A program made the position numbers and the translations under genes. From Alphaproteobacteria bacterium (GTDB lineage Bacteria; Pseudomonadota; Alphaproteobacteria; SHVW01), in assembly GCA_016869645.1 (NCBI GenBank), contig VGDO01000003.1, positions 14,875 through 78,874 of the forward strand: a DNA stretch of 64,000 bases. The letters are read 5' to 3'. Each line of letters begins with the position of its first letter. Within the stretch, counting starts at the first letter, position 1. Below are positions 13,102 through 14,533 of the stretch, piece after piece. The notes beneath the pieces are model-generated. The model saw only the letters and a program-made list of their open reading frames with translations, was not told where the DNA came from and made no database searches.

Positions 13102-14463
13102 ATGTCCGCCCAGCCCGGCCGCGCTCCCCGCCGCCCGTCCCAGCATCTTCTCGATGGTCCGGTGCTGCCGACGCTCGCAGCGCTGGCGGCACCCAATCTC
13201 CTGCTGGTGATGGCGCAGCTCGGCGCCAACATGGCCGAGGGGCATTTCATCGGCCGGATCGGCACCGATGCGCTGGCGGGCGCGGCTCTCGTTTTTCCGC
13301 TCTTCATGCTGATGCAGATGATGTCGGCGGGCGCCATGGGCGGCGGAATCTCGTCCGCAGTGGCCCGCGCGCTTGGCGCCGGCCGGACCGACGAGGCCGA
13401 ATCCCTGGCGCGCCACGCGCTCGTCATCGCGCTCGGGCTCGGCGTCGTGTTCACGGCCGGCGCCCTGCTCTTCGGCCCGGTTCTCTACCGCAGCCTCGGC
13501 GGACGCGACGAGTCGCTCGCCGCCGCGCTCACCTATTCGAACATCCTGTTCGGCGGCGCCGCGCTGTCCTGGTTGATGAACAGTCTGGCGTCGGTCGTGC
13601 GCGGTACCGGCAACATGCGCGTGCCGGCCGCCGTGCTGGTCGGCGTCGCGCTGGCGGGCGTGGCGCTCGCCCCGCCGCTGATGTTCGGCTGGGGCCCGGT
13701 GCCGGCGCTCGGCATCGCCGGTGCCGCGAGCGCGCTCGTTGTCAGCTACGGCGCCGGCGCCGCCATCTTCCTCTGGTATCTGACGAGCGGTCGCGGCGCG
13801 TTGCGCCTGCATCTCGGGCGTATGGAACTCAGCGCACGACGCCTCGGCGACATCCTCAAGGTCGGTCTGCCGGCGATCGCGCATTCGATCCTGGTCAACG
13901 TGTCGGTCGCCGCGATCACCGGCTATGTCGGCGCCTTCGGCACGGCGGCCTTGGCGGGCTACGGCCTCGGCGCGCGCCTCGAATATCTCCAGATCCCCAT
14001 CGTCTTCGCCTTCGGCGCGGCGCTGGTCGCGATGGTCGGCATTAATGTTGGCGCCGGCCAGCGCCTGCGCGCGCGTCGCGTCGCCCTCACCGGCGGGCTC
14101 GCCTGTTTCATCATGACCGGCTCGGTCGGGCTCATCGTCGCGGTCGCACCCGATCTGTGGACCGGCCTTTTCTCCGACGACGCAGACGTGCGCGCGGCCG
14201 GTGCGGCCTATCTCCAGCGCGCCGGCTGGGTCTACGGCTTCCTCGGCATGGGCATGGCGCTCTATTTCGCGGCCCAGGGCGCCGGCGACATGCGCTGGCC
14301 GCTCTTCGCCGGCACGGTTCGCCTGATCATCTTGGTCGGTGGCGGCTATCTCGTGGTCAACCAGGACGGTGGCACGCTCGCCGCCATCTTCCTCGTCATC
14401 GCGATCGGCCTCGTTGCTTTCGGCTCGCTCAATCTCGCGGGCGCACTCCGGATCTTCCGCGTC
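13102..14463 (+). CDS. MATE-family efflux transporter; native stop codon absent (frame runs into poly-C)
   Basis: About 453 aa of 12-TM MATE (DinF/NorM-like) sequence, then translation continues as poly-Pro through the C55 block. The end is set where MATE-like sequence stops. Confidence 0.7.
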
Positions 14464-14533
14464 CCCCCCCCCCCCCCCCCCCCCCCCCCCCCCCCCCCCC
14501 CCCCCCCCCCCCCCCCCGGGGGCCCCCCCCCCC
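14463..14533. repeat. C55-G5-C11 homopolymer block (71 nt)
   Basis: Directly visible: 55 consecutive C (14463-14517), GGGGG (14518-14522), 11 C (14523-14533). Confidence 0.95.

What the first reader, a model, noticed from the sequence alone, without database searches (positions are those of the whole stretch)
14463..14533. 71-nt C55-G5-C11 block replaces the stop codons of two convergent genes
A 55-C run, then GGGGG, then an 11-C run is wholly out of character for this genome. It lies exactly at the 3' junction of a MATE exporter gene (+) and an SMP-30 lactonase gene (-). Neither gene has a stop: the MATE frame continues as poly-Pro and the lactonase frame as poly-Gly. The paralogous lactonase at 51064..52077 carries about 20 residues after its LYIT block. 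This copy has 19 residues after IYVTE and then hits the G-run. So the native stops and short spacer should lie inside the block, and the block appears to substitute for about 70 bp of real sequence. Either assembly or base-calling error (for example poly-G no-signal reads on two-colour chemistry, or a mis-filled gap) or a real but extraordinary homopolymer could explain this. It also spawns spurious poly-Pro/poly-Gly ORFs (14157..14570, 14339..14602, 14346..14627).
Basis: seen in the sequence. Interest (0 to 1): 0.8.

Follow-up and report, generated by a model that had tools for sequence, protein, structure and literature searches.

The report
Assembly junk at a poly-C tract
The 71-base C55-G5-C11 block is almost certainly a sequencing or assembly artefact in a lake metagenome-assembled genome, because eleven other assemblies of the same bacterium carry only 16-19 bases there and both genes keep normal stop codons.

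Summary
The block is present exactly as described: C55 at 14463-14517, G5 at 14518-14522 and C11 at 14523-14533. No other homopolymer in the 64 kb exceeds 6 bases.

It is not the organism's normal sequence. The window matches a Lake Tanganyika alphaproteobacterial MAG (NCBI proteins MBM3596788-799). Eleven independently assembled contigs are 99.9-100% identical in both flanks. Between those flanks they carry only CCCCGCCG plus C8, C10 or C11, or C19 in one case. That is 16-19 nt.

No spacer and no stop codons were replaced. In the commonest state (C10) the MATE gene (471 aa) and the lactonase gene (320 aa) overlap convergently by 89 nt. Their stops lie outside the block and are still in the window, at 14568-14570 and 14429-14431. 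The 53 extra bases only put them out of frame.

The site is C-rich, with a G-quadruplex motif on the opposite strand. Other assemblies break or garble there. One JGI contig ends in a similar poly-C tail.

Verdict: artefact, confidence about 0.85. The exact process is unresolved. A two-colour poly-G cause is unlikely, because the data are HiSeq 2500. A real long allele is not excluded, at about 0.1.

The parts
13102..14462 (+). MATE efflux transporter gene, the part upstream of the tract (454 aa, ending ...ALRIFRV after the last transmembrane helix)
   Evidence: Pfam PF01554 MatE, E=5e-39. The same start is called in other contigs. Homologues align up to residue 441-452 and then have tails of 1-23 aa.
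14463..14466 (.). CCCC: the first four bases of the native tract (CCCCGCCG...)
   Evidence: Shared with all spanning contigs.
14467..14521 (.). Non-native part of the block under one possible parse: C51 + GGGG standing where related contigs have GCC. Net excess is +52 nt against the C11 allele and +53 nt against the C10 allele.
   Evidence: Absent from 11 independent contigs that are 99.9-100% identical in both flanks. Only L096 (JGI 3300020084) shows a comparable poly-C tail, and that contig ends there.
14522..14533 (.). G + C11: the native right end of the tract (C11 allele)
   Evidence: Identical to L001, L002 and L313. L093 has the same total length of 19 nt.
14534..15444 (-). SMP-30/gluconolactonase (SGL) gene, the part upstream of the tract (304 aa, ending ...PVRGRVAS)
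   Evidence: Pfam PF08450, E=4.5e-36, domain residues 46-285. Homologues are 301-306 aa and stop about 5 aa beyond this point.
14568..14570 (+). TGA: the true MATE stop in the C10 state (471-aa protein). It is out of frame in the window.
   Evidence: The exact 471-aa protein occurs on 3 JGI contigs, and an ENA contig carries a 471-aa variant with one substitution. L091 has this gene at 7955-9370.
14429..14431 (-). TGA (TCA on the plus strand): the true lactonase stop in the C10 state (320-aa protein). It is out of frame in the window.
   Evidence: The exact 320-aa protein is present in JGI and ENA. L091 has this gene at 9282-10244 on the minus strand.
14600..14602 (+). TAG: the MATE stop used in the C11 and C8 states (482 and 481 aa)
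14346..14348 (-). TAG (CTA on the plus strand): the lactonase stop used in the C11 and C8 states (348 and 347 aa)

Best explanation
The block is a sequencing or assembly artefact fixed in a deposited metagenome-assembled genome.

The real locus is a short, very C-rich tract, CCCCGCCG followed by C8-C11 and most often C10. It lies inside the 3'-3' overlap of a MATE exporter gene and an SMP-30-type lactonase gene. Both genes read through the tract, as Pro-rich and Gly-rich tails. Each stops 34-37 nt inside the other gene.

The opposite strand of this tract is a canonical G-quadruplex motif with a 10-11-nt homopolymer. Short-read data are error-prone at such sites. Several assemblies break there or report different versions.

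In the sample that gave this contig, degraded poly-C reads and a k-mer graph apparently produced a path of left flank, C55, G5, then the native G-C11 and right flank.

Shown: the block is absent from 11 other assemblies. The native sequence and native stops are established. The site is a recurrent breaking point.

Inferred: the artefact process itself, including a possible link between the 55-base run and metaSPAdes k=55.
For: (1) Eleven contigs span both flanks at 99.9-100% identity to the window and carry 16-19 nt instead of 71.
- C10: L004, L009 (Logan), L091 (ENA, MEGAHIT-style 111 kb) and L092 (JGI 3300020198).
- C11: L001, L002 and L313.
- C8: L003.
- C19: L093 (JGI 3300020214).
- The exact 471-aa C10 MATE protein is on three JGI contigs, including one of 108 kb, so two further JGI contigs carry C10 as judged from the protein alone (their DNA was not read).
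- Sources.

(2) In the C10 state both genes have stops and natural lengths.
- MATE is 471 aa. Its tail is 17 aa, and homologue tails are 1-23 aa (median 12).
- The lactonase is 320 aa.
- The window version gives 787- and 785-aa read-through ORFs that are antisense to each other.

(3) The site is a recurrent trouble spot.
- Four Logan contigs start inside the C-run and two end at CCCC or CCCCC.
- One JGI contig reads both G as C.
- One JGI contig ends in C38-A-C17-TGGGCCGCG....
- The aberrant versions differ from one another, whereas the short version is reproducible across three assemblers.

(4) The block cannot be derived from the native tract by simple slippage. It needs GCC to become C51GGGG.

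(5) Provenance.
- Window proteins are exact matches to NCBI MAG proteins MBM3596788, 789, 790, 792, 793, 794, 795 and 799, in gene order.
- Only one accession (791) falls where two genes belong.
- No NCBI-sourced normal MATE or lactonase exists.
- So the deposited MAG has a broken junction.

(6) The JGI samples that carry this population are Lake Tanganyika metagenomes: HiSeq 2500, 2x150, metaSPAdes 3.12 (PMC8245535). k=55 is one of the metaSPAdes k values in JGI's workflow (10.1101/2020.09.30.320929).

(7) The native minus strand contains GGGAGGGTGGCGTCGGGGGGGGGGCGGCGGGG. This is one of only 3 G4 motifs in the 64 kb. Illumina shows 2-2.4x mismatch errors, 3x deletion errors, 7-9x insertion errors and about 20% lower depth at G4 motifs (PMC10519405).

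(8) Poly-C/G runs of 45 nt or more are common junk in JGI-derived contigs. More than 120 occur in IMG/VR, mostly at contig ends. One comes from Lake Tanganyika sample 3300020183.
Against: No reads could be inspected, so absence from the source sample is inferred and not shown.

The L096 tail from another JGI sample is collinear with the window block. It has about 56 C-rich positions, then GGG at the same offset, with about 68 of 76 positions identical. This is unexpected for a random artefact. It could mean a reproducible process or a real minor allele.

The k=55 idea found no general support. Poly-C/G run lengths in 120 IMG/VR contigs decay smoothly with no peak at 55.

Known G4-associated Illumina errors are small indels, not 52-nt insertions.

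The assembler kept the long path in an 81-kb contig. That implies the short path was poorly supported in that sample.
Confidence: 0.85

Rival explanations
1. A real long allele. A subpopulation of this bacterium truly carries a runaway expansion of the tract (about C55 G5 C11). It dominated the sample from which this contig was assembled.
For: The native tract already differs in length between samples (C8, C10, C11, at least C12). One assembly has it uninterrupted as C19. A second sample (L096) shows a noisy but collinear version with about 56 C followed by GGG. Reversible-terminator chemistry can in principle read through long homopolymers.
Against: Eleven other assemblies of the same population have 16-19 nt. 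The change needs GCC to become C51GGGG, which slippage does not produce. It would fuse both genes into about 785-aa antisense read-through ORFs. Uninterrupted G/C tracts of this length are not known in free-living bacteria (my own knowledge). L096 is a dead-end contig tip with interspersed miscalls, which is typical of low-quality reads.
Confidence: 0.1
2. A two-colour-chemistry poly-G (dark-cycle) artefact.
For: Poly-G/C runs are the classic signature of NextSeq and NovaSeq dark cycles (general knowledge). Many IMG/VR contigs end in such runs.
Against: The Lake Tanganyika metagenomes that carry this population were sequenced on HiSeq 2500, which uses four colours (PMC8245535). The arrangement of C55 next to the left flank and G5 before the native C11 does not match 3' poly-G tails on either strand.
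Confidence: 0.03
3. A mis-filled gap or chimeric join that replaced about 70 bp of real spacer holding both stop codons, or that joined two loci which are not neighbours.
For: Neither gene has an in-frame stop in the window.
Against: The same left and right flanks are adjacent in 11 other contigs with only 16-19 nt between them. Both native stops lie outside the block and are present in the window. No spacer and no terminator exist in the native locus.
Confidence: 0.01

Closest known systems
Low-complexity homopolymer (poly-G/poly-C) artefacts in short-read de Bruijn-graph assemblies
   Same: It is a long C/G homopolymer inside an otherwise normal contig. It sits at a site where other assemblies break. 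It is not reproduced by other assemblers or samples. Its run length equals one of the assembler's k values (55). Similar junk runs are frequent in JGI-derived contigs.
   Different: It is internal and flanked on both sides by correct, truly adjacent sequence, whereas such junk is usually at a contig end. The platform is probably four-colour HiSeq 2500 and not two-colour. A collinear noisy copy occurs in a second sample (L096).
Phase-variable homopolymeric tracts (contingency loci, e.g. poly-G/C tracts in Neisseria, Haemophilus, Campylobacter and Bordetella)
   Same: The native C8-C11 tract is a strong outlier for this genome. It differs in length between samples. Each length change shifts reading frames.
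   Different: The tract is at the extreme 3' end of both genes, after all recognisable domains. It changes only the C-terminal tails and is not an on/off switch. The length differences could be sequencing error. No switching has been measured.
Convergent (3'-3') overlapping gene pairs in bacteria
   Same: In the native C10 state the MATE and lactonase ORFs overlap tail to tail by 89 nt, with no intergenic spacer or terminator.
   Different: The overlap is long. It is specific to this lineage: 80 lactonase relatives and a 73%-identical MATE relative lack this neighbour. It arises because the tract sits where the lactonase's ancestral stop would be.

Membership tests
Short-read homopolymer assembly artefact | Not reproduced in independent assemblies of the same genome or population | tested here: met
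   Eleven contigs from Logan, ENA and JGI, 99.9-100% identical in the flanks, carry 16-19 nt instead of 71.
Short-read homopolymer assembly artefact | Lies at a site where assemblies break or disagree | tested here: met
   Logan contigs L005, L006, L007 and L010 start in the C-run. L095 and L097 end at its left edge. L093 reads C19. L096 ends in a poly-C tail.
Short-read homopolymer assembly artefact | Run length tied to the assembler's k-mer size | tested here: inconclusive
   C55 equals a metaSPAdes k value. However, 120 IMG/VR poly-C/G runs show no peak at 55, and L096 has an interrupted run of 56.
Short-read homopolymer assembly artefact | Low read support, low base quality or strand bias across the block | not testable with these tools
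Two-colour poly-G dark-cycle artefact | Library sequenced on a two-colour instrument (NextSeq or NovaSeq) | tested here: not met
   Lake Tanganyika metagenomes were sequenced on HiSeq 2500 (PMC8245535). This is conditional on the window being that project's MAG, which the exact protein matches to MBM35967xx support.
Phase-variable homopolymeric tract (contingency locus) | Homopolymer of about 8 nt or more in or next to coding sequence, atypical for the genome | tested here: met
   The native run is C8-C11, against a maximum of 6 elsewhere in the 64 kb.
Phase-variable homopolymeric tract (contingency locus) | Tract length varies among otherwise near-identical genomes | tested here: inconclusive
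   C8, C10, C11 and at least C12 are seen in different runs. Illumina homopolymer or G4 error cannot be separated from real variation without reads.
Phase-variable homopolymeric tract (contingency locus) | Length change switches expression or function of the gene | tested here: inconclusive
   Frames computed: C7/C10/C13 give 470-472 aa (MATE) and 319-321 aa (lactonase). C8/C11/C14 give 481-483 and 347-349 aa. C6/C9/C12 give about 768-770 and 766-768 aa read-through. Only the C-terminal tails change. Any functional effect is unknown.
Intergenic spacer with terminator between convergent genes | Non-coding spacer with stops on both sides and a terminator hairpin | tested here: not met
   In the native locus the ORFs overlap by 89 nt. 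No terminator-like site was found in L091 9000-9700.

The most novel reading that the evidence does not exclude
The long tract is real. A G-quadruplex-forming poly-C tract inside the 3'-3' overlap of two convergent genes is truly hypermutable in this lake bacterium. It ranges from C8 to runaway forms of about 55 C in some subpopulations. A single slippage event would then re-frame the C-terminal tails of a MATE exporter and a lactonase at the same time.
Probability: 0.08. Interest if true: 0.6.

Novelty: not a real feature. Interest (0 to 1): 0.1.

Why it matters
The main value is as quality control. A deposited MAG carries a 52-53-nt junk insertion. It destroys the annotation of two genes and creates about 785-aa antisense read-through ORFs and poly-Pro/poly-Gly 'proteins'. 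Scans for unusual low-complexity sequence or unusual proteins will keep flagging it.

It also shows a cheap and decisive check: compare the junction with other assemblies of the same population.

The underlying native locus has only modest biological interest. It is a C8-C11 tract inside an 89-nt convergent gene overlap, and its length differs between samples.

Tried and rejected
- Exact scan of metagenome contigs with the 22-nt left flank found 0 hits. That collection lacks these samples.
- Genome-contig scan with the lactonase found only relatives of 62% identity or less. None had a MATE neighbour, so no cross-species comparison of the junction was possible.
- Metagenome-contig scan with the MATE protein found only relatives of 57% identity or less. 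They were useful only for C-terminal tail lengths.
- The closest MATE relative (P0016, 73% identity) has a different neighbourhood and no lactonase.
- The k=55 signature test found no peak at 55 among poly-C/G runs of 45 nt or more in 120 IMG/VR contigs. The idea is kept only as a weak hint.
- Attempts to fetch the window's own source contig, the NCBI 81-kb contig or the JGI 108-kb contig all failed. The window's 787-aa and 785-aa read-through ORFs are not in the protein collection.
- Terminator and promoter scan of the native junction found nothing.
- A strand folding failed on sequence length and was not repeated, because structure was not decisive.
- A chimeric join of non-adjacent loci is rejected, because the flanks are adjacent in 11 other contigs.
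- I could not reconstruct any read-level scenario that yields G5 between C55 and the native C11. Dephasing, dark cycles and fold-back were all considered.

Full report
OBSERVATION

The window reads ...CTTCCGCGT, then C55 (14463-14517), G5 (14518-14522) and C11 (14523-14533), then GACGCCACC.... The window has 65.9% G+C and no N. The longest other homopolymer of any base is 6 nt, so the tract is real in the file and far outside this genome's own run-length distribution.

The left flank is the 3' end of a MATE gene (13102.., plus strand; PF01554, E=5e-39). The right flank is the 3' end of an SMP-30/SGL lactonase gene (start 15444, minus strand; PF08450, E=4.5e-36).

In the window both frames run through the block, as poly-Pro and poly-Gly. 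They continue for about 300 codons antisense to each other, giving ORFs of 787 and 785 aa from the gene starts. There are 19 residues after IYVTE, the paralogue ending at 51064 has 20 residues after LYIT, and the three short ORFs exist.

WHAT OTHER ASSEMBLIES OF THE SAME ORGANISM SHOW

Exact-protein look-ups with neighbouring genes retrieved contigs from several independent sources:
- Logan assemblies of at least eight SRA/ENA runs.
- An ENA MEGAHIT-style contig of 111 kb.
- JGI metagenome contigs.

These contigs are 99.9-100% identical to the window on both sides of the block.

Between the same flanks (...CGCGT | GACGCC...) they carry:
- CCCCGCCG + C10 (18 nt): L004, L009, L091, L092.
- CCCCGCCG + C11 (19 nt): L001, L002, L313.
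- CCCCGCCG + C8 (16 nt): L003.
- C19: L093, where both G are read as C.

The exact C10-state MATE protein (471 aa) lies on three JGI contigs, including one of 108 kb. The exact C10-state lactonase (320 aa) is in both JGI and ENA.

The two flanks are therefore truly adjacent, and the native junction is 16-19 nt, not 71.

NATIVE GENE ENDS

In the C10 state the MATE gene ends at a TGA that corresponds to window 14568-14570. The lactonase ends at a TGA (minus strand) that corresponds to window 14429-14431. The two ORFs overlap tail to tail by 89 nt (L091 7955-9370 plus strand, 9282-10244 minus strand). Coordinates were checked.

The lengths are natural.
- MATE homologues have 1-23 residues (median 12) beyond the position of ...RIFRV, and the C10 tail has 17.
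- A 73%-identical relative has a tail of similar length.
- Lactonase homologues are 301-306 aa and stop about 5 residues beyond ...PVxGxx, which is exactly where the G-run sits. This lineage's lactonase is about 15 aa longer because it reads through the tract into the MATE antisense strand.

C11 and C8 use the next stops, at 14600-14602 and 14346-14348, giving 482/481 and 348/347 aa. C9 or C12 would give about 770-aa read-through ORFs. The window's block (+53 nt against C10) is equivalent to that frame.

So no stop codon and no spacer were 'replaced'. The stops are still in the window, out of frame. The 'spurious' ORFs at 14157..14570, 14339..14602 and 14346..14627 are the 3' ends of the genuine frames. 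No terminator-like site exists at the native junction.

PROVENANCE

Window proteins are exact matches, in gene order, to NCBI proteins of a 'MAG: Alphaproteobacteria bacterium':
- MBM3596788: substrate-binding protein.
- MBM3596789 and MBM3596790: permeases.
- MBM3596792: HydB.
- MBM3596793: HydA.
- MBM3596794 and MBM3596795.
- MBM3596799: Tgt.

Only one accession (791) lies where two genes belong. No NCBI-sourced copy of the normal MATE or lactonase exists. This fits a deposited MAG whose junction is broken as in the window.

The JGI samples that carry this population (3300020198, 3300020214, 3300020084, 3300020221) are Lake Tanganyika metagenomes. They were sequenced on HiSeq 2500 (2x150) and each sample was assembled with metaSPAdes 3.12. 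The MAGs are in PRJNA523022 (PMC8245535).

WHY THIS SITE

The native tract and its right flank are 64% C over 50 nt. The opposite strand reads GGGAGGGTGGCGTCGGGGGGGGGGCGGCGGGG, a canonical G-quadruplex motif and one of only three in the 64 kb. Illumina data show 2-2.4-fold more mismatches, 3-fold more deletions, 7-9-fold more insertions and about 20% lower depth at G4 motifs (PMC10519405).

The site is a recurrent trouble spot:
- Four Logan contigs begin inside the C-run.
- Two Logan contigs end at CCCC or CCCCC.
- One JGI contig reads the tract as C19.
- JGI contig Ga0194110_10040243 (L096) ends, after the correct left flank, in C38-A-C17-T-GGG-CC-G-C-G-CCC-G-CCCCC-G-C.

Long poly-C/G runs are common junk in JGI-derived contigs. 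More than 120 IMG/VR contigs have runs of 45 nt or more, mostly at contig ends, and one is from Lake Tanganyika sample 3300020183.

MECHANISM: WHAT IS SHOWN AND WHAT IS INFERRED

Shown:
- The block is absent from every other spanning assembly.
- The short version gives two intact genes.
- The site makes assemblies fail.
- The block cannot be produced from the native tract by slippage alone, because GCC would have to become C51GGGG.

Inferred: degraded C-dominated reads across the G4/homopolymer, together with a k-mer graph, produced a surviving path through poly-C. The run of exactly 55 equals a metaSPAdes k value. k=55 is the largest default k (my own knowledge) and is one of JGI's 33, 55, 77, 99, 127. 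A path that crosses a poly-C k-mer vertex once yields exactly k bases.

I tested whether 55 is a general signature and found no peak in 120 IMG/VR runs. This remains a weak hint.

I could not reconstruct how G5 arises between C55 and the native C11.

UNEXPLAINED

The L096 tail is collinear with the window's block. It has about 56 C-rich positions, then GGG at the same offset (positions 58-60 after the T), with about 68 of 76 positions identical.

If L096 and the window come from different samples, there are two readings. Either the artefact process is reproducible at this template, or a real minor allele of this shape exists. This is the main reason I keep about 0.1 on a real long allele.

COMPARISON WITH KNOWN THINGS

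The block behaves like known low-complexity homopolymer junk in short-read assemblies. It is unusual only in being internal and flanked by correct sequence. The two-colour poly-G explanation fails its defining test, because the platform is four-colour.

The native tract resembles phase-variable homopolymeric tracts in length, in being atypical for its genome, and in varying between samples. However, it lies at the extreme 3' end of both genes and changes only their tails. Its variation may also be sequencing error, so I do not file it as a contingency locus.

The native arrangement is a lineage-specific convergent gene overlap of 89 nt. Lactonase relatives and the 73% MATE relative lack this neighbourhood.

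VERDICT

The interpretation as an artefact is supported. The detail that about 70 bp with two stops was replaced is wrong, and the two-colour cause is unlikely.

Novelty: not a real feature. Interest 0.1. Confidence in the artefact reading is about 0.85. Read mapping or PCR across 14400-14600 would settle it.

Noticed in passing
window 18108-18121 (inside hydantoinase A, 17203-19284 +): A (CG)n repeat-length polymorphism in the same population. The window, L002, L003, L005 and L093 have the longer form and an intact 693-aa HydA. L001, L004, L008, L091 (ENA) and L092 (JGI) lack one CG unit, which splits the gene. In the Logan contigs it is linked to a T/C SNP at 19191. It is not correlated with the C-run length at the junction.
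   Followed up: partly
window 14668-15465 (+): In every contig with a C11, C8 or C19 tract, the gene caller dropped the lactonase. It called a 265-aa antisense ORF with no Pfam hit in its place (L001, L002, L003, L093, L313). A 1-nt difference in the tract therefore changes which gene is annotated.
   Followed up: partly
native junction, e.g. L091 9282-9370 (equivalent to window 14429-14462 plus 14534-14570): The native C-run differs between runs: C8, C10, C11 and at least C12. Both C10 and C11 occur on both (CG)n backgrounds. This may be real hypermutability of a G4-forming homopolymer inside an 89-nt convergent gene overlap, or Illumina homopolymer error.
   Followed up: partly
L096 (JGI 3300020084, Ga0194110_10040243) 4293-4368: The contig ends in C38-A-C17-T-GGG-CC-G-C-G-CCC-G-CCCCC-G-C directly after the correct left flank. 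It is collinear with the window block, with GGG at the same offset. The reason for this reproducibility is unexplained.
   Followed up: partly
NCBI accessions MBM3596790-MBM3596792 (window 12126-17199): Only one protein accession (MBM3596791.1) lies between OppC and HydB, where MATE and the lactonase should both be. No NCBI-sourced near-identical MATE or lactonase is in the protein collection. What 791 is could not be determined.
   Followed up: partly
L258 1705-1752 (IMGVR_UViG_3300020183_005371) and about 120 other IMG/VR loci (L188-L307): Poly-C/G runs of 45-150 nt are frequent in IMG/VR contigs, mostly at contig ends and often with degenerate C- or G-rich shoulders. One internal C48 is in a contig from another Lake Tanganyika sample.
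   Followed up: no
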